Part shown: positions 1 through 57,458 of the stretch, piece after piece
How the letters are laid out: every line of letters starts with the position of its first letter
Numbering within the stretch: position 1 is the stretch's first letter
IMG/VR virus record: IMGVR_UViG_3300029914_000006
Reading direction: 5' to 3' (one strand)
Length of the DNA stretch: 64,000 nucleotides
Origin: an uncultured virus (IMG/VR IMGVR_UViG_3300029914_000006)
Taxonomy: Duplodnaviria; Heunggongvirae; Uroviricota; Caudoviricetes
Notes under the pieces: generated by a model
The model's database searches: none
What the model was told of the DNA's origin: nothing
The model's input: only the letters and a program-made list of their open reading frames with translations
Translations under genes and position numbers: made by a program

Positions 1-127
1 CTTTGCTATCCAGTAGTTTCCAGCACATTGAGGACGTGCGATTCGCTCTTGAGTTCTTTATCGAGAAAATGCAGAGATCGCGGGATGCGCACGACCACGA
101 CAAGATCAGCGATATCGATGGATTCCA
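1..127 (+). repeat. Exact 127-bp direct repeat, copy 1 (copy 2 at 37927-38053)
   Basis: CTTTGCTATCC...GATGGATTCCA is identical in both places. The first mismatch is at 128 (T) versus 38054 (C). Confidence 0.95.
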
Positions 128-389
128 TCGCGACTTCTTGACCGGCTTCAAGGAGCATTCATGGTGGGACAATCACCGCAAGGTCAACCGTCACCATCTG
201 CTCGAGGCAGACGGCGTTCCCGCCGATGTGAACCTGATCGACGTTTTGGACATGATTTCAGATTGCGTCATGGCCGGCATGGCTCGTTCTGGTTCTGTTT
301 ATCCGCTCAATATCGACCCTGAAGTTCTCGTGCGCGCATTCCAGAACACCGTAGAATTGCTCAAGAAAAACGTGGAGGTCGTCGGATAA
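3..389 (+). CDS. HD-like phosphohydrolase (DUF5662-like), 3' part of the phage A copy; 5' part lies at 37851-37926
   Basis: HDHDK...NHRKVNRHH...NLIDVLDMISD pattern. Near-identical to 37851..38348. Confidence 0.6.
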   Translation: MLSSSFQHIEDVRFALEFFIEKMQRSRDAHDHDKISDIDGFHRDFLTGFKEHSWWDNHRKVNRHHLLEADGVPADVNLIDVLDMISDCVMAGMARSGSVYPLNIDPEVLVRAFQNTVELLKKNVEVVG

Positions 390-2251: not shown

Positions 2252-4386
2252 AAAACCGTATTATCACATTTCTCGGAACGCTGGCACTATTCCTGAGCTC
2301 TGTCCCTGCTGTATCTCAGAATCCTGTGGTGCCTTTCCGGTCGCCGCGCGCCACGTTCACCACTCAGACAGGCCAGCCACTCTCGGGCGGATGCATCTAC
2401 ACCTACCAAGGCGGCACAACCACTCAGCAGGCGACCTACACCGATTACACAGGCGGCACAGCCAACACGAACCCCGTCATTCTCGATACTACCGGCAGCG
2501 CTGTGATGTGGCTTGGCGCGAACTCCTACAAGTTTGTCGCCTACAGCGCTGGTGGGTATCACTGCTCATCGGGAAGCCTCCAGTGGACGGTTGATCAGAT
2601 TCCCGGCGATGCGTTCCTGAACGGGACCATAAGCGGCGCGACAATCACCAACCCTACAATCACCGGCGGCACGGATTCAGGCACAACAATTTCCAGTGCG
2701 GTAATTACAGGATCGAGCATCAATAGTTCTGCAATCGGCTCCTCTGTGCCAGCATCAGGGTCGTTTACCAGCGTAGCCTCAGCGCTCCAGGCCGTGACCT
2801 TTAGTTCGACTCCCGTCTTTGCTGCTAGCAGTTACGGTTATTTCACTATGACGCTGAGCGGAAATGTCGCATCCAGCACAATCACCGGAGCAACTACGGG
2901 CCAGACGATAGCTTTTCAGATTTGCCAGAACGGGACCGGTCAGGTGGTTAACAGCCAAACTACCGGATTTACGTTTGCGTGGCCTTCTACGTACCCGAAT
3001 GCACCCACGATAAACTCTGCGCTGAATGCTTGCACTGTGGTGACTGCTTTCTATAATGGCTCCAACTGGGTCACGATCTCGCAGAGCCAGCAGGTGATTC
3101 TTGGCAATCTCGATACTCTAACGTTCACGTCTACGCCGATATTTCCAGCAACAAACTACTCGAATTTCCTGCTCACGCTCACAGGGAACGCGACAAGTAG
3201 CACAATTGCAGGCGGAACCATTGGACAGGTTTCCACCTTCGACATATGCGAAGACTCGACCGGGGGGCGAACCTTCGTGTGGCCTTCGAATGTCCTAAAT
3301 TCTCCCCAGTTTGTGACTAACGCGGGAGTGTGCAACTCGCTGATTACGGTTTACAACGGAACAAACTGGAACACGGTTGCAAGCTCCTCGACAAGCTCTA
3401 CTCCGCTGACCGGGAACCTGGATATCATCGGTTTCACTTCTGCCCCGTCATTTAACGCGGCGAGCTACAGCGCTTTCCAGATGACACTAGGGGGTAATGT
3501 CACTTCCAGCTCGATCATCGGCGGATCAACTGGACAGTTGATTTCCATCGCACTGATACAGGGGTCGTCTACAACTACGGCTCCAGCGAGCGCTCCGACA
3601 GTCACAACCTCTACCACTGGAGGCAGTCTCCCGGCTACGACAACCTATTACGCAAAATGCAGTTATCTGTTCGGGGTGACAGAGAGCCTGCCGAGCGCGG
3701 AGGCGTATCAGGCGACAGGCTCAGGGTCTACGAACTCAATCACTTGGACCTGCCCAGCGTATGCGGGCGTGACGCAGTACAAGTTCTATCTGGGGGCGGG
3801 GACGGGTGCAGAAGCCTATTATTATCTGACAACCAGCACTTCATTTGTGCAGCAAAATATACCCAGCAGTTACACTCCGGGCTCGCCGTACGGATCAAGC
3901 ATATACACCGTAGCGTGGCCTTCCAACCTGATAAACCCGCCACTGATGGCTACTGGTGTAGGCGCTACGACCGCTCTTACTGCCGTGTACAACGGTTCAT
4001 ATTGGGTAACGGTAGGATCAAGTGGTGCAGGTAGCAGCAATAGCGGCCCGGTGTGCGTGGGCGGTAATTGCTATCGGCAGAACCCTGATGGAAGCTATGA
4101 CGAGTGGGGATCAACTCCCACGTTTGGAGGGCAGAATGGCGGTAGCTTCAGCATGGCTTTCCCTCATGCATTCACCACGCTTTCGAGTATTCAGGTAGTT
4201 TTTAGTCCGAACGGATGCGATGGCGGCAATGCGGCTACCTGCGCCGCGAATCCAAGCGGCAGCCCGAACAACGTGTACACGTGTGGAATTCTTACTCCAA
4301 GCGTAAGCGCGCCTACCGGCTTCTATTCGTCCTCGAATACGGTAACCGCCGGAGCGTCATGTTCCTGGATGGCGAAGGGGTATTGA
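2248..4386 (+). CDS. Tail fibre-like protein with N-terminal signal peptide
   Basis: Virion-attachment-type segment GQPLSGGCIYTYQGGTTT..NTNPVILD, three internal beta repeats (TF.STP.F.A..Y..F..TL.GN..SSTI.G), and a C-terminal fibre-tip-like YRQNPDG..DEWG..FPHAF. Confidence 0.75.
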   Translation: MKNRIITFLGTLALFLSSVPAVSQNPVVPFRSPRATFTTQTGQPLSGGCIYTYQGGTTTQQATYTDYTGGTANTNPVILDTTGSAVMWLGANSYKFVAYSAGGYHCSSGSLQWTVDQIPGDAFLNGTISGATITNPTITGGTDSGTTISSAVITGSSINSSAIGSSVPASGSFTSVASALQAVTFSSTPVFAASSYGYFTMTLSGNVASSTITGATTGQTIAFQICQNGTGQVVNSQTTGFTFAWPSTYPNAPTINSALNACTVVTAFYNGSNWVTISQSQQVILGNLDTLTFTSTPIFPATNYSNFLLTLTGNATSSTIAGGTIGQVSTFDICEDSTGGRTFVWPSNVLNSPQFVTNAGVCNSLITVYNGTNWNTVASSSTSSTPLTGNLDIIGFTSAPSFNAASYSAFQMTLGGNVTSSSIIGGSTGQLISIALIQGSSTTTAPASAPTVTTSTTGGSLPATTTYYAKCSYLFGVTESLPSAEAYQATGSGSTNSITWTCPAYAGVTQYKFYLGAGTGAEAYYYLTTSTSFVQQNIPSSYTPGSPYGSSIYTVAWPSNLINPPLMATGVGATTALTAVYNGSYWVTVGSSGAGSSNSGPVCVGGNCYRQNPDGSYDEWGSTPTFGGQNGGSFSMAFPHAFTTLSSIQVVFSPNGCDGGNAATCAANPSGSPNNVYTCGILTPSVSAPTGFYSSSNTVTAGASCSWMAKGY

Positions 4387-15274: not shown

Positions 15275-15532
15275 CTAACAAGTGCCGTCGCCGGAGCCAT
15301 AGCCGTAGCCGGAGCCATAGCCGGAGCCGTCGCCGTCGCCGGAGCCGTAGCCATAGCCGTCGCCGTAGCCATAGCCGGAGCCGTCGCCGGAGCCATAGCC
15401 GTAGCCGGAGCCATAGCCGGAGCCGTCGCCGTCGCCGGAGCCGTAGCCATAGCCGTCGCCGTCGCCGGAGCCGGAGCCGGAGCTATAGCCGGAGCCGTGA
15501 TACTTACTTTTTGTCTTCGATGAATCTGACAT
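15275..15532 (-). CDS. Gly-X (GS/GD/GY) repeat protein
   Basis: Nearly pure GGC-NNN hexamer repeat. Overlaps the end of the DUF6948-like gene. Confidence 0.6.
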   Translation of the reverse strand: MSDSSKTKSKYHGSGYSSGSGSGDGDGYGYGSGDGDGSGYGSGYGYGSGDGSGYGYGDGYGYGSGDGDGSGYGSGYGYGSGDGTC

Positions 15533-17366: not shown

Positions 17367-17876
17367 TTAACGCCTCCAAGCAAAATCACCATGAATTTGT
17401 TTCGCTACCAAGCAATACTTTTCGTAGGCTAATTCCGGAGTATCAAATAAACCAAGATAGCTACGCTTTCCTTTTACTTCTATGCAAGCGCGCCACTTCT
17501 TGTCGCGCTTATACCACGAGACTCCCTTGAATCCACTTTTATTATTTCTCTGTGGGCCCCGGTTACATTGATTCTGCGATGAAGTTGCAATTCTTAGGTT
17601 TTCATCCCGGTTATCTAAAGTGGCTTGATTTTTATGCTCTCCTTGGCGCTTGTCTCCGAACTTAAGTCCTAGAATTTCACGATGCATTCCAATCACCACG
17701 CGTCTACCGTTTTCGAGTTTAATCTTTCGGAAGGCATAAAATGTTCGCGTGTGGGAAATCCAGCATGCCCACCACTTATATGCATTCAACTCATCAAATC
17801 GATGCGCAGAAACAAGCGCAACTTGTCCCTGAGTGAGCGGAATTTCGCGGTACAATGGCGTAGATGGGGTTGTCAT
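17367..17876 (-). CDS. HNH-AP2 homing endonuclease
   Basis: IPLTQG, MHREI..EHKNQATLDNRDENLR, SGFKGVSW..KWRA..YLGLF..HGDFA. Confidence 0.9.
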   Translation of the reverse strand: MTTPSTPLYREIPLTQGQVALVSAHRFDELNAYKWWACWISHTRTFYAFRKIKLENGRRVVIGMHREILGLKFGDKRQGEHKNQATLDNRDENLRIATSSQNQCNRGPQRNNKSGFKGVSWYKRDKKWRACIEVKGKRSYLGLFDTPELAYEKYCLVAKQIHGDFAWRR

Positions 17877-17932
17877 GATTCGCCCTCCCAGGCGATAAGG
17901 CTTGCCGGTGCTGATAACACCTGACAGCCCCA

Positions 17933-18166
17933 TTATACAACGATTTCTACATTAAATGCACGCGATTGTTTGTCCTCTTGGGGCACGCGCCCAATCAGCC
18001 CCTTGACGCGTGCGCCGATCTCTGGCACAGTGCGCTCCTTGGCGTAGTTTTTGTGGCAGAAAAGCGTTTCCCCCGCGTCTGTGCGCACCCAGAAAATATC
18101 CTTGTGCGTGACTGTGTTCTCTACCACTCCGGTAAATCTCTCTGCGTTGGTCACTTTCAAGCTCAT
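17933..18166 (-). CDS. Cold-shock/OB-fold-like small protein
   Basis: FTGVV..FWVRTDAGETLFCH..GARV..RAFNV resembles a CSD fold. Confidence 0.5.
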   Translation of the reverse strand: MSLKVTNAERFTGVVENTVTHKDIFWVRTDAGETLFCHKNYAKERTVPEIGARVKGLIGRVPQEDKQSRAFNVEIVV

Positions 18167-22895: not shown

Positions 22896-23429
22896 GCGCG
22901 GCCTCCAATCCAGGTGTCGCGGGTGATGATTGCGGCCATGAACAGCAGGCCGATGGCCGGGAAAATTGCGAGTACTGCTAATGCTTGCATGGTGCCTCCT
23001 GCGTTACTCGTGCGTTGAGCTGCGGTCCGCCTGGCTGCGTCAAGGATGCGAGACCTTCGTTGAGTTGTGCGAGTTGCGCGGCGATCTCGCGTAGCATCTC
23101 AACTGCATCACGTATAAGAGGCTCTGCGCTTTGGCGATTCGTGAAATCGTAAATTTCGAATTTCCTTATTTCTTCGCTGGTCATATAATCCTTCCCCTTT
23201 CGCGCATGAGCGCCTTCCTCTGCGCCCATTTTTGCTGCTCCTTATGCGGTTGAGTACCGCTGTGTGCTGTGCCGGAGGTTCCACTCTGCGCTCCGGCCCG
23301 CATAGCCACTAAAGGCGCGTTGCTTATTTATTCATTTTGGCTAGGAGCCAACACTGTGTGCTACATGCGCTCACCGGCCTTTCTGATTTTCGTTTGCGTC
23401 GAAGATGGACGCTCATCACCAACACAATC

Positions 23430-23459
23430 ATCATGCGCCACAATGCCGGAATGTGTCAA
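23430..23459 (-). promoter_or_regulatory. Probable leftward early promoter
   Basis: Minus strand TTGACA-18 nt-CATGAT with AT-rich upstream sequence. Confidence 0.55.
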
Positions 23460-23481
23460 GAGGAATATTGATTATTTTCGC

Positions 23482-23516
23482 AAAATAAAAGCCCCCAGTT
23501 TTTAGGCTGAGGGCTT
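23482..23516 (-). terminator. Rho-independent terminator
   Basis: Minus strand AAGCCCTCAG/CTGGGGGCTT hairpin followed by TTATTTT. Confidence 0.75.
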
Positions 23517-23586
23517 GAGATTTGCGGGATGTCACGGCTAGGTGTCAACGCTGGCTGTGAAGGGATGATCGACAGGCACCCCGCAG

Positions 23587-23620
23587 TTGAAGTGTACCGC
23601 ATCCATGTGCGACAATTCAA
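23587..23620. promoter_or_regulatory. Overlapping bidirectional promoter pair
   Basis: Plus strand TTGAAG-18-GACAAT with extended TGn. Minus strand TTGAAT then TACACT. Confidence 0.5.
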
Positions 23621-24160
23621 GTGTCAACGCATGGCAGAGTCGAGAAATCGATTCGGGGAGTTCGCGGAACACTCAGCCCAATAACAACGGTCCGCTTGAG
23701 TACGACAGGTAGCGAAAGAGACACGCATGAAAGCAATCACAGCGAAAATCCGGGCAACGGGCGGCTGTTTGATGCCGCGACACGGCAACGCCCCGGTCAA
23801 ATGGGCTTTCCAATACTAAGCTGATCAGATTGCAATCAAGACCTGACACGCCATGCCAAGAGATGCTGCGCAGAACGGGTATAGCCCGTAGGGATGCCGT
23901 ATGTCTTAGATTAGAAATAGTTTACGTGAAGTGTTCGAATTTTGATTCCTGCCCTTCTCTCCACCTGACAATGTCGCCAGCACGCGCACAAATAACTGTG
24001 CCTCCTGTGGATACAGGAGAAGCGGGGTCCGGGGCGCAGTCCTGGAATTGTGCTGATATGTAGTAGGGAATTTAGGTACCGCTGGAATCACCTGAGTGAT
24101 GGGCGGCGATGTCGTCTGTCACAACTGCTTGCTTTGTCGCTTTGCTCTTGCAAACAGCAT
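23621..24160 (+). ncRNA. Candidate large structured noncoding RNA
   Basis: Nested long-range stems, GNRA loops and G-U pairs favouring the plus strand. No credible ORF. Confidence 0.6.
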
Positions 24161-24225
24161 AATTGGTGTGTCAAGAATAAGTTCGATCATATTATCTGAG
24201 TGTATATCGCTCACATTTAAGTTAT

Positions 24226-24639
24226 TTATTTTGAATAGTTTCGTAGTGCGCGCTCTAGGTTCCCATACTTATCGATCCTTTGGTAAAGCCTTTGCCTGGA
24301 TATTCCAACCAGCGCAGCAATCTCCGAAGCGTTCAAATAATGCACGCTAGGTATCCTCTGATTTTCCCTTTGTTGCTTAGCTGTCGCCCATCGGCAGTTC
24401 GCCGGTTTGTAATCCCCATCGTTGTCGATGCGGTCTATGTTGTGCTTCTTGCTTGGCGCAGGCCCCATGTCGGAGAAGAAGTTTTCAAAGGAAAGCCATC
24501 TCTCGCACACTTTAATGCCTCTTCCCCCGTAGTACTTATAAGCAGTCACTTTAGGGTTACGACATCTGTTTTTCATAGAGGTCCAAACACCATAGATCAG
24601 AGTCTTTCTCATTCCGTGCGTTATGTTTCGCGGTTTCAT
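24226..24639 (-). CDS. HNH homing endonuclease-like protein
   Basis: [42 protein letters not shown]. Confidence 0.88.
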
Positions 24640-24739
24640 GTGAGCATCCCCTTGACATATATATTACTCAATAAATTGCCAATGCTGTCAAGATGTTGTT
24701 GTCATCACTCCAATCCGGCGCTTGTGGTAGAATCTTCCC

Positions 24740-25189
24740 ATGTTGCATCCCAGCCAAAATTGCCTCGACCTGATCAAGCGCAGCGAAGGCCTGCGCCTGA
24801 CGCCGTACCTCGATCTTGCAGGGTACTGGACGGTTGGGTATGGGCACAAGCTCACAAGCGCAGAGCTGGCCGGAGATGCCAAGACGCGCAATATCACCGC
24901 GTCGGATGCTCTTTTACTGCTGATCGACGATGCGGACTGGGCCGCCGAGCAGGTAGCGCGGATAGTGCATGTGCCGCTCGCTCAAGGCCATCTCGACGCG
25001 CTCACGGACTTTGTTTTCAACCTCGGCGCTGGCCGCCTGGCAGGATCGACGCTGCTCAAACTGCTCAACGCTGGAGACTACGCCGCAGCCGGCCAGGGGC
25101 TGCTCAAGTGGGACATGGCCGCAGGCGTGCACCAGCCGGGACTAACTGCTCGGCGCAAAGCTGAGCTTGCGATGTGGGAGACAGCATGA
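24740..25189 (+). CDS. Endolysin, GH24 lysozyme
   Basis: SEGLRLTPYLDLAGYWTVGYGH (E-x8-D-x5-T), FVFNLG, GLTARRKAE. Confidence 0.93.
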   Translation: MLHPSQNCLDLIKRSEGLRLTPYLDLAGYWTVGYGHKLTSAELAGDAKTRNITASDALLLLIDDADWAAEQVARIVHVPLAQGHLDALTDFVFNLGAGRLAGSTLLKLLNAGDYAAAGQGLLKWDMAAGVHQPGLTARRKAELAMWETA

Positions 25190-35192: not shown

Positions 35193-35230
35193 CGGTTTAC
35201 CTCCATTCCTTGCTGGTGTATCATGTCAAT

Positions 35231-35857
35231 ATGAACATGACACCAGCGGGGAATCGAGTGGAATTCTTTGGCGGACTTTGTTCCATCAAGGGTTGTGACC
35301 TTCCGGAATTGGCGGCGGGTTTCTGCAACAAGCACTGGCGGCGTTTACGGAAGTATGGTTCTCCGCTATGGCTGGCAAATCCATCAGGGTCGTATCGTGG
35401 ACTTCCGGCCGAGGTCAGATTCTTCAAGCGAGTCATTAAGACAGACGCTTGCTGGGACTGGCAGGGTGGAGTGGACGCAGACGGGTATGGAGTCTTTATG
35501 GGAGAGGTTTTAGGAACGGTATTACGAAGGGCGCACCGCTTCTCGTGGTCCTTTCACAATAACCGCACTATTGCTCCCGGCATGGAGATTCTGCATTCTT
35601 GCGATAACCCAAAATGTGTTAACCCAGACCATCTGTCTCTTGGAAACGCTGCTGAAAATCAGCGAGATAAGTGGACAAAGGGTAGAGGTTGGGTACATAA
35701 GGGAACATCTCACTGGTCCACGAAACTAAGCGAAGAACAAGTCCGTGAAATCCGCTCCAGCACGGAGACGCAGAAGCAACTAGGGATGAAATATGGTCTC
35801 AAGCAGTCCACCATCTCATGTATCGTTAGTCGTAAATCGTGGAAGCACGTAGACTGA
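35231..35857 (+). CDS. HNH endonuclease with C-terminal HTH
   Basis: CWDWQG..GYG..RAHRFSW..ILHSCDNPKCVNPDHL; TKLSEEQVREIR. Confidence 0.9.
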   Translation: MNMTPAGNRVEFFGGLCSIKGCDLPELAAGFCNKHWRRLRKYGSPLWLANPSGSYRGLPAEVRFFKRVIKTDACWDWQGGVDADGYGVFMGEVLGTVLRRAHRFSWSFHNNRTIAPGMEILHSCDNPKCVNPDHLSLGNAAENQRDKWTKGRGWVHKGTSHWSTKLSEEQVREIRSSTETQKQLGMKYGLKQSTISCIVSRKSWKHVD

Positions 35858-37850: not shown

Positions 37851-38348
37851 ATGAAAATGATCCAGATCAAGAAAAGCCCCACGGCTGATACACGCACCTG
37901 CGACTTTGCAAACACAAGCAAAGACACTTTGCTATCCAGTAGTTTCCAGCACATTGAGGACGTGCGATTCGCTCTTGAGTTCTTTATCGAGAAAATGCAG
38001 AGATCGCGGGATGCGCACGACCACGACAAGATCAGCGATATCGATGGATTCCACCGCGACTTCCTGACTGGATTCGAGGAGCACTCATGGTGGGACAATC
38101 ACCGCAAAGTGAATCGCCATCACCTACTCGAAGCAGACGGCGTGCCAGAGGACGTAAACCTGATCGACGTCTTGGATATGATTTCCGATTGCGTTATGGC
38201 GGGGATGGCTCGGTCTGGATCGGTTTATCCTCTCAACATCGACCCTGACGTTCTCATGAGGGCATTCCAGAACACGGTCGAACTTCTCAAGAAGAACGTC
38301 GAAGTTGTAGATTGGTCAGAACAGGAGAAATACATTGGCCTCATTTGA
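37851..38348 (+). CDS. HD-like (DUF5662-like) protein; probably a hybrid of the phage A 5' end and the phage B 3' end
   Basis: Contains the 127-bp repeat. Downstream of it the sequence diverges from 128-389, mostly at synonymous sites. Confidence 0.65.
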   Translation: MKMIQIKKSPTADTRTCDFANTSKDTLLSSSFQHIEDVRFALEFFIEKMQRSRDAHDHDKISDIDGFHRDFLTGFEEHSWWDNHRKVNRHHLLEADGVPEDVNLIDVLDMISDCVMAGMARSGSVYPLNIDPDVLMRAFQNTVELLKKNVEVVDWSEQEKYIGLI

Positions 38349-38874: not shown

Positions 38875-38951
38875 TGGTGGGCCTTGTTGGGTTTGAACCA
38901 ACGACCTTCCCGTTATGAGCGGGCTGCTCTGACCAACTGAGCTAAAGGCCC
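38875..38951 (-). tRNA. tRNA with CAT anticodon, probably Ile2 (lysidine type)
   Basis: GGGCCTTTAGCTCAGTTGGTCAGAGCAGCCCGCTCATAACGGGAAGGTCGTTGGTTCAAACCCAACAAGGCCCACCA forms a cloverleaf with encoded CCA, C4-G69 and C5-G68. Confidence 0.93.
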
Positions 38952-55804: not shown

Positions 55805-56497
55805 ATGCCGACGCCAATCTCCACCCTCGCGAATGTGGTCCAGCAGAGACTCGAAGAAGTACCGGGTAGCGCGGGGGCGTGGTGGAGTAGGCAATTCGAG
55901 GTGTATACGGCCTTGGTCGAGGCTCAGAACGACCTCCTCCTGCTTGTCGGACGCCCAACGCAGATCGTCAACATCCCCCTTACGCTGACGGCCAACACGG
56001 TATGGCAGGCGGTCCCGAAGGGCTACTTCGCGATCACGGATATTCAGGGCTCGGGAAGCCCTTTATACAAGGTGAACTTGTGGGATCTGGATTACCTATG
56101 CACGAGCTGGGGTCCGAACTGGACGCAGGACGTGGATGTGGTGGCGCAACGGTGGGCGCCGATAGGTATGAATCTTTTTGTCGTCCATCCGGCGCCGGCC
56201 TACCCGCAGACGGTCAACGTGACGGCGATCCAGTATCCGGCGACTGACGTGTGGCCGTATACGGGAGCAGAGACGGTTGTTTTCTCTGATGAGTTTTTTG
56301 TGGCGCTAGAACTGTACGCTGCCCATTATGCGACGATCAAGGAATTAGGTGGCGAGTTTCAGAACGGGCTGAAATTGCTCGACCAATATATGCAGATTGC
56401 AAAGCGGATGTCGTCCATCCAAGACCTTCGTGACCCTCTAATCTTCACGTCGGGATATGGATCAAGTCAGCGAGTTTCGCCAACTACTATGCGCTGA
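55805..56497 (+). CDS. Head-tail / tubular protein-like
   Basis: VQQRLEE..WW..ALVEAQND, VHPAP, ALELYAAH pattern. Confidence 0.6.
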   Translation: MPTPISTLANVVQQRLEEVPGSAGAWWSRQFEVYTALVEAQNDLLLLVGRPTQIVNIPLTLTANTVWQAVPKGYFAITDIQGSGSPLYKVNLWDLDYLCTSWGPNWTQDVDVVAQRWAPIGMNLFVVHPAPAYPQTVNVTAIQYPATDVWPYTGAETVVFSDEFFVALELYAAHYATIKELGGEFQNGLKLLDQYMQIAKRMSSIQDLRDPLIFTSGYGSSQRVSPTTMR

Positions 56498-57458
56498 ATA
56501 CCTCCGGAAAATTCAGGATTGCTTTACCGCCATAAATGCGGAGCGCCTCTCTATCTCGCGTTAAAGCCGCATCAATAGGATTCACAAAACGTCCTAGTTG
56601 CTTAGTTTTTCCGTTCTCCGTGACTGTGGCAAAATATATATTCCTGCTTTTATCTAACGACACCCCGCGATAACCAGACTTATTTGTGGACAGCATCCGC
56701 TTTTGTTTGTGGCGAGAACTGTCAATCCATGAAGTGTCGGTTTCGTCTGGAAAATTAGGTCGGGCGAATTCCCCGAAGTATTTACGCGCGGCATCGTCGT
56801 AAGCGAGAGCAGCGCCTTCAGGCGTCTTAAAGACACCAAGATACATTGGTTTCCCGTTGACGGTTATGATGGCAATGTACACCTTTCCTTCGGGGTACAA
56901 TCGCTCTGAAATCCCTTTATATCCATGCCATGCGTGGCAACGCGATTTAGCATTTTGCGTATTTTCCCGTGCCGATGCTGGCCTCAAATTTCTGCGCCTA
57001 TTATCAAGGCCATCGCCGTTCCTATGATCCCCCATTTTCTCGCCAGGGGAATCAACTATGAAGCGGTGCATGGCTATGCACATACGCTTTCCGTTGACTG
57101 TGACTTTGGTGACCGGGTAGATCCCCTTGCGAGTTGTCGTCGCATTGGCGCTAAACGACATCAACATGAGGCGGTCGTATTCGCAGGCATCTACGGTTGC
57201 GTAATAGCCCCTCGTGAGCGGAATCTTACGACAGATATCTCCATCGACCACGTAGGTTGATTCATCTACTGGAGGCTTGAGGCTAGCTTCCTTGCAGGCG
57301 CGGCAGCGGGTCGAGCGTTGCTCTTTTAGGCCTCCGCAGTCCGGGCAAGTGGAGTAAGATGCGGCGCGCCCATCGTAAGCAAAATTCTGTTTGACGGGAG
57401 GGGTATACGATGTAAAATCGATGGGTGGCTGGGCCACCTGCTCAAGCAGGTCTGACAT
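56487..57458 (-). CDS. HNH endonuclease with two AP2 domains
   Basis: IPLTRG, MHRFI..DHRNGDGLDNRRRNLR, two (GY.G..LG.F..AAL..D..F/Y.NFP) units. Confidence 0.92.
   Translation of the reverse strand: MSDLLEQVAQPPIDFTSYTPPVKQNFAYDGRAASYSTCPDCGGLKEQRSTRCRACKEASLKPPVDESTYVVDGDICRKIPLTRGYYATVDACEYDRLMLMSFSANATTTRKGIYPVTKVTVNGKRMCIAMHRFIVDSPGEKMGDHRNGDGLDNRRRNLRPASARENTQNAKSRCHAWHGYKGISERLYPEGKVYIAIITVNGKPMYLGVFKTPEGAALAYDDAARKYFGEFARPNFPDETDTSWIDSSRHKQKRMLSTNKSGYRGVSLDKSRNIYFATVTENGKTKQLGRFVNPIDAALTRDREALRIYGGKAILNFPEVFSA

What the first reader, a model, noticed from the sequence alone, without database searches (positions are those of the whole stretch)
23621..24160. Candidate ~540-nt ornate noncoding RNA at the position of a lambdoid immunity region
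Seen, domain 1: closed by GCATGGC (23629-35) / GCCATGC (23850-56). It contains GAGTCGA-GAAA-TCGATTC, AGCCCA (23675) / TGGGCT (23802), CCGGG (23750) / CCCGG (23792), GCGGC/GCCGC and several GAAA/GCAA loops. Seen, domain 2: closed by ATGCTG (23863) / CAGCAT (24155). It contains a four-way junction CAGCAC (23978) / GTGCTG (24050) enclosing GCACA/TGTGC, CTCCTGT/ACAGGAG and TCCGGGGC/GTCCTGGA. G-U pairs favour the plus strand, and a promoter-like element lies just upstream. Known: large phage RNAs such as GOLLD and ROOL exist, but I cannot match this to any family by eye.
Basis: partly seen in the sequence, partly recalled or inferred. Interest (0 to 1): 0.8.

Follow-up and report, generated by a model that had tools for sequence, protein, structure and literature searches.

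The report
Composite phage control region, small conserved core
The proposed 540-base ornate RNA is really a stretch unique to this one peat phage joined to a much smaller, about 130-base, highly conserved non-coding element of unknown role that sits between the phage's early and late genes.

Summary

Across 9 distinct sequence variants from related peat phage contigs:
- All of "domain 1" lies in about 460 nt (23485-23945) found only in this phage. Even a relative 98.8% identical just to the right lacks it.
- The helix closing domain 2 and the four-way-junction helix are not kept.
- A core at 24044-24175 is conserved, with a 45-nt invariant run, and is more conserved than the flanking genes.
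- The core predicts three adjacent plus-strand hairpins. One of them (24125-24157) shows compensatory changes.
- An optional upstream hairpin (24002-24019) also covaries.

The setting is the single divergent early/late control region of a complete 38-kb P22-like podophage. No integrase or repressor was detected, so it is not a lambdoid immunity region. A homing HNH gene lies beside the core. Other relatives carry unrelated sequence at the same slot.

My best reading is a small plus-strand regulatory RNA, held with low confidence. The strand, transcription and function are not shown. A minus-strand 3' UTR and a DNA-level site remain live alternatives.

The parts
23227..23264 (-). 5' UTR motif of the first early gene: a 5-bp hairpin followed by an AAGGAG ribosome-binding site and the ATG at 23229
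   Evidence: Sequence read. It is the only part of 23200-24800 covered by peat metatranscriptome contigs, and those contigs have many different flanks (tables 7 and 8).
23430..23459 (-). Leftward early promoter (TTGACA, 18 nt, CATGAT) driving the Erf / exonuclease / RusA / DnaB operon
   Evidence: Best sigma-70-type match in the scan, 10 of 12. 23416-23480 is conserved at 80-86% in relatives. Equivalent sites were called in L140 and L136. Its function is inferred.
23489..23516 (-). Intrinsic-terminator-like hairpin (10 pairs, then TTATTTT) just upstream of the early promoter, private to this phage
   Evidence: It is absent from the aligned relatives.
23485..23945 (.). About 460 nt private to this phage, replacing about 105 nt in relatives.
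   Evidence: Relatives have about 152 nt between the equivalents of 23480 and 24020. A DNA contig of run X19 joins 23442 to 24020. There is no homologue in IMG/VR beyond the same phage, none in GenBank phages, and no paralogue in the window.
24002..24019 (.). Optional 7-bp hairpin CTCCTGT/ACAGGAG. In the L140 group its counterpart is followed, on the minus strand, by a U-run and is called terminator-like.
   Evidence: 91% of cells paired, 2 of 7 pairs changed on both sides, present in 5 of 9 variants. Terminator call in L140.
24044..24175 (+). Conserved type-A core: P1 (24065-24093), hairpin B (24096-24122; 12 bp, 5 of them wobble pairs), hairpin C (24125-24157; 8-9 bp, invariant 17-nt loop), then an invariant TGTCAA (24169-24174)
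   Evidence: Nine distinct variants, with a 45-nt invariant run. Hairpin C has 3 of 9 pairs changed on both sides and 91% of cells paired; hairpin B has 10 of 12 pairs that never vary. Consensus-fold energy is -26.3 on the plus strand and -21.0 on the minus strand. Indels of 1 to 5 nt argue against coding. The strand is inferred, not shown.
24197..24213 (+). Terminator-like hairpin with a T-rich tail on the plus strand, between the core and the 3' end of the HNH gene
   Evidence: An analogous plus-orientation terminator-like site follows the core in L140.
24226..24639 (-). HNH-type homing endonuclease gene (137 aa), present only in this phage and L148. Other relatives have a 54-58-aa minus-strand gene, or nothing, at this place.
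   Evidence: phrog_3377 at E 4.7e-47. The 53 homologous loci do not share the flanking non-coding DNA, except the same phage. L148; the small gene.
24725..24742 (+). Extended -10-like TGGTAGAAT, 6 nt before the ATG of the endolysin gene (24740). No Shine-Dalgarno sequence, so possibly a leaderless start of the lysis/packaging operon.
   Evidence: Sequence. The same motif lies before the ATG in L060, and TGCTAGACT in L136. Lysozyme family match. This is inference only.

Best explanation
The interval is a composite, not one RNA.

Its left two-thirds (23485-23945, including all of domain 1) is sequence private to this phage. Its only recognisable feature is a minus-strand terminator placed in front of the early promoter.

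Its right part holds a family-conserved non-coding element (core 24044-24175). I read this as a small structured RNA on the plus strand. It has three adjacent hairpins: P1, a 12-bp wobble-rich hairpin B, and hairpin C with an invariant 17-nt loop. I infer that it is made as part of a short rightward transcript that ends at the terminator-like hairpin at 24197-24213, before the oppositely oriented HNH gene.

The element sits in the only divergent control region of a 38-kb P22-like podophage in which no integrase was found. That region lies between the leftward early promoter and the rightward lysis/packaging operon. My proposal is that the RNA takes part in regulating the early/late programme.

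Shown: the composite nature, the conservation, the non-coding character and the covariation in hairpin C. Inferred: the strand, the transcript ends and the regulatory role.
For: Composite nature:
- L148 is 98.8% identical over 24020-24750, yet has 152 nt where the window has 540.
- L136 and the L060 group show the same pattern.
- A DNA contig in run X19 skips 23443-24019.

Conservation:
- 8 viral contigs hold the 18-mer taken from the core and 10 metagenome contigs hold the 23-mer.
- These give 9 distinct variants.
- The core is 76-91% identical, with a 45-nt invariant run, while the neighbouring 83-aa gene is 53% and the lysozyme 70% identical at protein level.

Not coding:
- There are 1-nt and 2-5-nt indels inside the core.
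- The invariant run contains no variable positions at all, so no candidate synonymous sites.

Structure:
- Hairpin C has 3 of 9 pairs changed on both sides, including a one-base loss on each arm in the window and L148.
- 0 of 500 shuffles reach the observed covariation score. The tool warns that relatedness among sequences can inflate this.

Plus strand:
- 23975-24175 folds to -76.7 kcal/mol (z -2.52) on plus and -58.0 (z -1.97) on minus.
- Consensus-fold energy is -26.3 on plus and -21.0 on minus.
- Five wobble pairs in hairpin B would be A-C mismatches on the minus strand.
- Terminator-like hairpins oriented for plus-strand transcripts follow the core in the window and in L140.
Against: - No transcription evidence exists. 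No RNA run holds the stretch, and peat metatranscriptome contigs cover only 23226-23264.
- No convincing plus-strand promoter is conserved across the 9 variants. The scans found none upstream of the core on that strand in L137, L140 or L136.
- Hairpin B and P1 never vary, so they give no covariation evidence.
- About a quarter of the predicted pairs are wobble pairs, which makes the fold weak. L140's copy folds with z only -0.95.
- At the variable pair of hairpin C, 3 variants favour plus (G-U) and 2 favour minus (C-A on plus).
- Minus-strand genes (HNH or the 58-aa gene) lie upstream in 8 of 9 variants. In L140 a minus-orientation terminator follows the core. The core is therefore at least as likely to be transcribed on the minus strand.
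- Relatives with the same flanks carry unrelated sequence at this slot. Those sequences do not fold better than shuffles.
Confidence: 0.4

Rival explanations
1. Minus-strand reading. The region is the long 3' untranslated tail of the HNH (or 58-aa) gene transcript. The conserved core and its hairpins are a processing, stability or termination-insulator region that keeps upstream leftward transcription out of the early promoter.
For: - A promoter-bearing minus-strand gene lies upstream of the core in 8 of 9 variants.
- A strong minus-strand terminator lies at 23516-23489, just before the early promoter.
- In L140 the covarying hairpin is called a minus-orientation terminator directly after the core.
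- The minus strand of 23975-24175 also folds below shuffles, z -1.97.
- An invariant perfect hairpin ATCAC-N4-GTGAT with a GC extension forms on either strand.
Against: - The core is kept in L136/G003, where no minus-strand gene lies between it and the lysis genes.
- The terminator hairpin is deleted in 4 of 9 variants.
- The minus fold is 19 kcal/mol weaker, and hairpin B is lost on that strand.
- A 45-nt invariant run is more than a terminator needs.
Confidence: 0.25
2. DNA-level element. The core is a protein-binding or replication site, such as an origin, a single-strand priming signal or an operator cluster. Its invariance reflects recognition by a conserved protein.
For: - Nucleotide-level invariance over 45 nt.
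- The palindrome ATCAC-N4-GTGAT lies inside that run.
- TGTC-type motifs recur: 4 of the 5 GTGTCAA sites in the 64-kb window fall within 23453-24174.
- All 3 type-A records long enough to check carry the same DnaD-like initiator at 87-100% identity. G004 (type B) and G006 (type D) show no match.
Against: - G008, which has a type-B cassette, also carries a related initiator: 71% identity over residues 1-192. The link to the replication module is therefore not strict.
- G005 and G006 are fragments.
- There are no regularly spaced direct repeats or AT-rich unwinding stretch in the core.
- The paired one-base deletions and the T-A to C-G exchange in hairpin C fit a folded single strand better than a duplex site.
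Confidence: 0.2
3. One reading: one ornate RNA of about 540 nt with two domains (23621-24160), comparable to GOLLD or ROOL.
For: - The listed helices exist in the window.
- The plus strand folds somewhat better than the minus strand.
- A weak promoter-like site near 23587-23616 and a terminator-like site at 24197-24213 would bracket about 600 nt.
Against: - z is -1.31, with 11 of 100 shuffles folding as well.
- There is no Rfam match.
- Domain 1 is absent from all 8 other variants.
- The domain-closing helix is paired in 46% of cells, and the junction helix in 73% with no double changes.
Confidence: 0.03
4. A small protein is encoded in the core, for example the frame that starts at the ATG at 24099.
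For: Seven of 9 variants keep one frame for about 22 codons from that ATG. This is my own reading of the sequences printed.
Against: - The window and L148 carry two separate 1-nt deletions that shift the frame.
- The frame ends at very different lengths, 23 to more than 150 codons.
- The first 7 codons have no synonymous variation.
- There is no ribosome-binding site.
- Short ORFs of the region have no convincing Pfam or PHROG match: one weak sub-threshold Pfam hit (E 0.003, 17.9 bits against a cut-off of 27) for 23830-24063.
Confidence: 0.03

Closest known systems
HK022 put RNA (putL/putR), a cis-acting antiterminator RNA of a lambdoid phage
   Same: Both are protein-free phage RNA elements of about 70 nt built from two adjacent stem-loops near an early promoter. 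Hairpins B and C here span about 62 nt. The put features are taken from passages of PMC9378689.
   Different: - put lies downstream of PL and PR on the transcribed strand and occurs twice per genome.
- This core is single-copy.
- It lies upstream of the early promoter on the opposite strand.
- There is no sequence similarity, and RNA polymerase binding cannot be tested here.
GOLLD and ROOL large ornate RNAs
   Same: Both are non-coding elements linked to phages or prophages (search listing and abstract start of PMC12286853; search listing of PMC5737381).
   Different: Those RNAs are several hundred nucleotides long with many covarying helices, and they have Rfam models. Here there is no Rfam hit. 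Only about 130 nt is conserved, and only one core hairpin covaries.
Lambda OOP RNA, P22 sar, P1 c4 and P4 CI: small phage regulatory or immunity RNAs (recalled, not read here)
   Same: These are small structured RNAs encoded in phage control regions. Some are convergent with and overlap the 3' end of a neighbouring gene, as a plus-strand transcript here would overlap the HNH or 58-aa gene's tail.
   Different: - No target complementarity was found in the window.
- The core persists where the convergent gene is absent (L136).
- The phage shows no lysogeny genes.
Lambdoid immunity region (cI - PRM/PR - cro)
   Same: The position is upstream of a leftward early promoter, with a terminator in front of it, at a mosaic hotspot where relatives carry alternative sequences.
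   Different: - No repressor or Cro family was detected.
- No integrase was found in 5 of 5 records.
- The rightward partner is the lysis/packaging operon, not an early operon.

Membership tests
Any Rfam 15 family (including GOLLD, ROOL, group I/II introns, ribozymes, tRNA-like RNAs) | Covariance-model score at or above the family's gathering threshold | tested here: not met
   Whole window: only a tRNA at 38878-38951. Region 23200-24400 at E<=10: two hits at 23.4 and 14.9 bits against thresholds of 90 and 80.5, both outside the finding. Seven relatives' loci: nothing on the element. ARAGORN: no tRNA or tmRNA in 13 loci.
Large ornate RNA (GOLLD/ROOL kind) | A multi-domain structure of more than 400 nt, conserved across homologues, with covariation in many helices | tested here: not met
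   Domain 1 is absent from 8 of 8 other variants. Of the 5 reader helices that can be aligned, 1 shows double changes and the closing helix is paired in 46% of cells.
HK022 put-type antiterminator RNA | About 70 nt with two stem-loops | tested here: inconclusive
   Hairpins B and C (24096-24157) fit the size and count. B never varies and C covaries. The resemblance is generic.
HK022 put-type antiterminator RNA | Lies downstream of an early promoter on the transcribed strand, with two copies per genome (putL and putR) | tested here: not met
   The core lies upstream of the early promoter on the other strand. There is one copy in the window and in the complete genomes. put features come from PMC9378689.
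HK022 put-type antiterminator RNA | Binds the RNA polymerase beta-prime zinc-binding domain and suppresses termination | not testable with these tools
   This needs in vitro transcription.
Lambdoid immunity region | Repressor and Cro-type genes flanking divergent early promoters in a temperate phage | tested here: not met
   No such Pfam or PHROG family among the 51 ORFs scanned. PF00589 was found in 0 of 5 records, 2 of them rated 100% complete. Small ORFs under 90 aa in the early operon were not all scanned.
HNH homing endonuclease (neighbouring gene 24226-24639) | Family match and sporadic, context-independent distribution | tested here: met
   phrog_3377 at E 4.7e-47 and phrog_374 at 1.4e-42. 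Of 53 homologous loci, only 1 (the same phage) shares the flanking DNA. It is present in 2 of 9 type-A variants. Catalytic residues were not checked.

The most novel reading that the evidence does not exclude
The slot between the shared block upstream of the early promoter and the late operon holds interchangeable non-coding cassettes. There are at least four unrelated types, A to D, and the window carries type A. Under this reading the cassettes are specificity modules of an RNA-based regulatory system: each type would be a different regulatory RNA setting the early/late or superinfection behaviour of its phage, much as heteroimmune c4 or CI RNAs do in P1/P7 and P4. Here it would operate in P22-like peat phages that lack integrase and protein repressor genes.
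Probability: 0.08. Interest if true: 0.7.

Novelty: new member of a known kind. Interest (0 to 1): 0.3.

Why it matters
If the core is a functional RNA, it would be an unclassified regulatory RNA family from uncultivated peat podophages. It sits at the one place where such a phage must decide between early and late transcription. The alternative cassettes at the same slot would hint at modular RNA-level control.

As things stand, the main value is corrective. A visually rich set of helices in 540 nt turns out to be mostly lineage-private sequence. Only about a quarter of it is under selection.

Tried and rejected
- **Sequence homology outside the family.** GenBank phage blastn of 23230-24225 gave no match. 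The 23-mer from the core was found 0 times in genome contigs, so there is no sign of a host attB or of prophage copies in isolates.
- **Anchoring on the HNH gene.** This brought 53 loci, but only the same phage shares the non-coding DNA.
- **Private insert 23485-23945.** An 18-mer scan of IMG/VR returned only chance matches of 18-29 nt besides the same phage. There is no paralogue in the window.
- **Expression.** No RNA holder was listed. Laying three peat metatranscriptome contig sets gave cover only at 23226-23264. This is no evidence either way.
- **Antisense pairing with the early 5' UTR.** The core's GGTTGAG-GTACCGC resembles the complement of the early 5' UTR hairpin. I rejected pairing between them because L140 and L136 lack the match, and type-C phages have the UTR hairpin without the core.
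- **Trans targets.** No excess of matches to the hairpin-C loop or to the invariant run in the window.
- **Distant copies.** A covariance model found only the 3 known copies in 457,707 bases from 49 sources.
- **Folding of cassette types B-D.** None folds below shuffles.
- **Link to the replication module.** Suggestive, but broken by G008.
- **Earlier findings of this scan.** Three look-ups returned nothing.
- **Calls that did not complete.** (relatives of a virus record) returned an error. (script) timed out. L147 and L150 are not held, so they were not searched.

Full report
**What the window holds**

- Positions 1 to about 38,900 correspond to a complete 38,053-bp phage record with direct terminal repeats (G002, rated 100% complete), in a different circular permutation.
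- It is a P22-like podophage: P22-type portal and coat, Sf6-type small terminase, large terminase, lysozyme.
- The genes form two big divergent blocks. A leftward block (23229 down to 12800) encodes Erf, a YqaJ-type exonuclease, RusA, a DnaD-like initiator and DnaB. A rightward block starts at 24740 with the endolysin, a spanin-like gene and the terminase.
- The finding lies in the only gap between these blocks.
- No tyrosine integrase was found in 5 of 5 related records, 2 of them rated complete.
- No repressor or Cro-type family was found among the 51 ORFs scanned. Not every small ORF was scanned.
- The phrase "position of a lambdoid immunity region" is therefore only a loose positional analogy.

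**The observation**

- All listed complementary segments are present at the stated coordinates.
- They are not clearly more than chance for the whole unit. The plus strand folds to -182.4 kcal/mol, z -1.31, with 11 of 100 shuffles folding as well. The minus strand has z 0.09.
- Domain 1 alone has z -1.79 on plus (8 of 200) and 0.26 on minus.
- Rfam gives nothing: only a tRNA elsewhere at gathering score, and two weak chance hits outside the interval at E<=10.
- The upstream promoter-like element matches 8 of 12 consensus positions, below the scan's threshold.

**Relatives**

- GenBank phages hold nothing similar.
- The neighbouring minus-strand gene, 24226-24639, is an HNH homing endonuclease (phrog_3377, E 4.7e-47). 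Its 53 homologous loci do not share the non-coding DNA, apart from the same phage.
- Loci fetched through the lysozyme and the 83-aa first early gene gave the first true relatives.
- Exact-word scans with invariant core words gave 8 viral and 10 metagenome contigs, and none among the representative genomes of 185,579 bacterial and archaeal species.
- Together these give 9 distinct sequence variants, aligned in A7 and A9.

**What is and is not conserved**

- Conserved: 23416-23484, the early promoter region, at 80-86%.
- Conserved: roughly 23975-24175, with a core at 24044-24175 at 76-91% and a 45-nt invariant run.
- Between these two segments the window has 540 nt where relatives have about 152.
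- This holds even for L148, which is 98.8% identical to the window from 24020 through the HNH gene. It also holds for L136, which is 86-91% identical on both sides.
- A DNA contig in one peat run joins 23442 to 24020.
- The extra sequence (23485-23945) has no homologue found in IMG/VR and no paralogue in the window.

| Helix | Cells paired | Double changes |
|---|---|---|
| Domain-2 closing helix | 46% | none |
| CAGCAC/GTGCTG | 73% | none (one pair unpaired in 7 of 8 sequences with letters) |
| GCACA/TGTGC | 70% | one pair |
| TCCGGGGC/GTCCTGGA | 77% | none |
| CTCCTGT/ACAGGAG | 91% | 2 of 7 pairs |

The last hairpin is deleted in 4 of 9 variants. In L140 it is called a terminator for the opposite (leftward) direction.

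**The conserved core**

- RNAalifold on A9 predicts three adjacent plus-strand hairpins.
- Hairpin B (24096-24122) has 12 pairs, 5 of them wobble pairs. Ten of the 12 never vary, so it offers no test.
- Hairpin C (24125-24157) has 91% of cells paired and 3 of 9 pairs with changes on both sides. These include a T-A to C-G exchange (5 against 4 variants) and a one-base loss on each arm in the window and L148. Its 17-nt loop is invariant. None of 500 shuffles reaches the covariation score, though the tool warns that relatedness inflates this.
- Indels of 1 and 2-5 nt, and the absence of any variable positions in the invariant run, argue against coding.
- The plus strand is favoured thermodynamically: -76.7 against -58.0 kcal/mol for 23975-24175, and consensus-fold energy -26.3 against -21.0.
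- Both strands fold somewhat below shuffles, however, and L140's copy reaches only z -0.95.

**Wider context**

- Using the small 58-aa minus-strand gene that replaces the HNH gene in most relatives, I fetched 23 more loci.
- Twelve of them share the early promoter and a block of about 155 nt upstream of it, but carry unrelated sequence in place of the core. There are at least three further types.
- These other cassettes match no Rfam family or tRNA and do not fold better than shuffles.
- A covariance model of the core finds no hidden copy in them: 3 known copies in 457,707 bases.
- The slot is therefore a mosaic hotspot.
- Type A goes with one DnaD-like initiator / DnaB module in 3 of 3 checkable records. 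A type-B record also has a related initiator, so the link is not strict.

**Transcription**

- No RNA run holds the stretch.
- Metatranscriptome contigs cover only a 38-nt hairpin plus ribosome-binding-site motif at 23227-23264, with many different flanks.
- In L140 the core is bracketed by terminator-like hairpins, one for each direction, each placed after the core. The window has a plus-strand one at 24197-24213. Either strand could therefore carry the core in an RNA.
- No conserved plus-strand promoter was found.
- The late operon seems to have its own extended -10 motif 6 nt before the endolysin ATG. The core is therefore probably not simply the late leader.

**Verdict**

- The 540-nt ornate RNA is not supported as a unit.
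- A real, strongly conserved, non-coding element of about 130 nt is present in its 3' part.
- I rate a small plus-strand regulatory RNA as the most likely reading (about 0.4). A minus-strand 3' UTR or insulator (0.25) and a DNA-level site (0.2) are serious rivals.
- Comparison with HK022 put RNA (passages of PMC9378689) shows a generic likeness: about 70 nt, two stem-loops. Membership fails on position, strand and copy number.
- GOLLD and ROOL (search listings and, for PMC12286853, the start of its abstract) are not comparable in size or in covariation support.

Noticed in passing
window 23227-23264 (-): A 38-nt motif (5-bp hairpin, AAGGAG, ATG) before the first early gene recurs in many different RNA and DNA contigs of peat runs, with unrelated flanks. 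It also appears before the first early gene of type-C relatives (L162, L163). It may be a shared translation-initiation or regulatory cassette.
   Followed up: partly
L137:299-351 (-): A sub-threshold match to the type-P1 twister ribozyme (36.6 bits against a gathering score of 67.2, E 1.4e-4) in the early region of a relative.
   Followed up: no
window 24725-24742 (+); L060 3465-3486; L136 about 2770-2790 (-): The endolysin ATG is preceded at 6 nt by an extended -10-like motif, with no Shine-Dalgarno sequence. In L145 and L140 a perfect TATAAT sits 6 nt before the ATG. This suggests leaderless late-operon mRNAs in this phage family.
   Followed up: partly
L145, L137, L140 (downstream sequences printed): Between the 58-aa gene and the late promoter, relatives carry arrays of short repeats: GAAACGTTTCA several times, CAGAA or GGCAGA runs, AGAAAG runs. 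These look like iterons or regulator-binding arrays. The window has only about 100 nt at this place.
   Followed up: no
window 15275-15532 (-) and overlapping frames: A low-complexity repeat in the early operon reads as a Gly/Tyr/Ser/Asp-rich 85-aa ORF in one frame, or an Ala/Thr/Pro/Met repeat in another. It is conserved in G003.
   Followed up: no
window 17367-17933 (-), 24226-24639 (-), 35210-35857 (+), 56487-57458 (-): Four HNH-type endonuclease genes in the window, three of them in the 38-kb phage. Such a load of homing endonucleases is (recalled knowledge) more usual in virulent phages.
   Followed up: partly
window 1-373 vs 37927-38299; 38,959-64,000: The window's first 373 bases are 89% identical to 37927-38299. 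Beyond the tRNA-Met (38875-38951) lies a second, different phage-like region with its own terminase, portal and major head protein. The window is therefore not one simple genome.
   Followed up: partly
window 23453, 23542, 23621, 24168 (+): Four of the five GTGTCAA sites in 64 kb cluster within 720 bp, all on one strand. One is the -35 of the early promoter read on the other strand. The one at 24168 is invariant in all 9 variants. No matching -10 was found for the others.
   Followed up: partly
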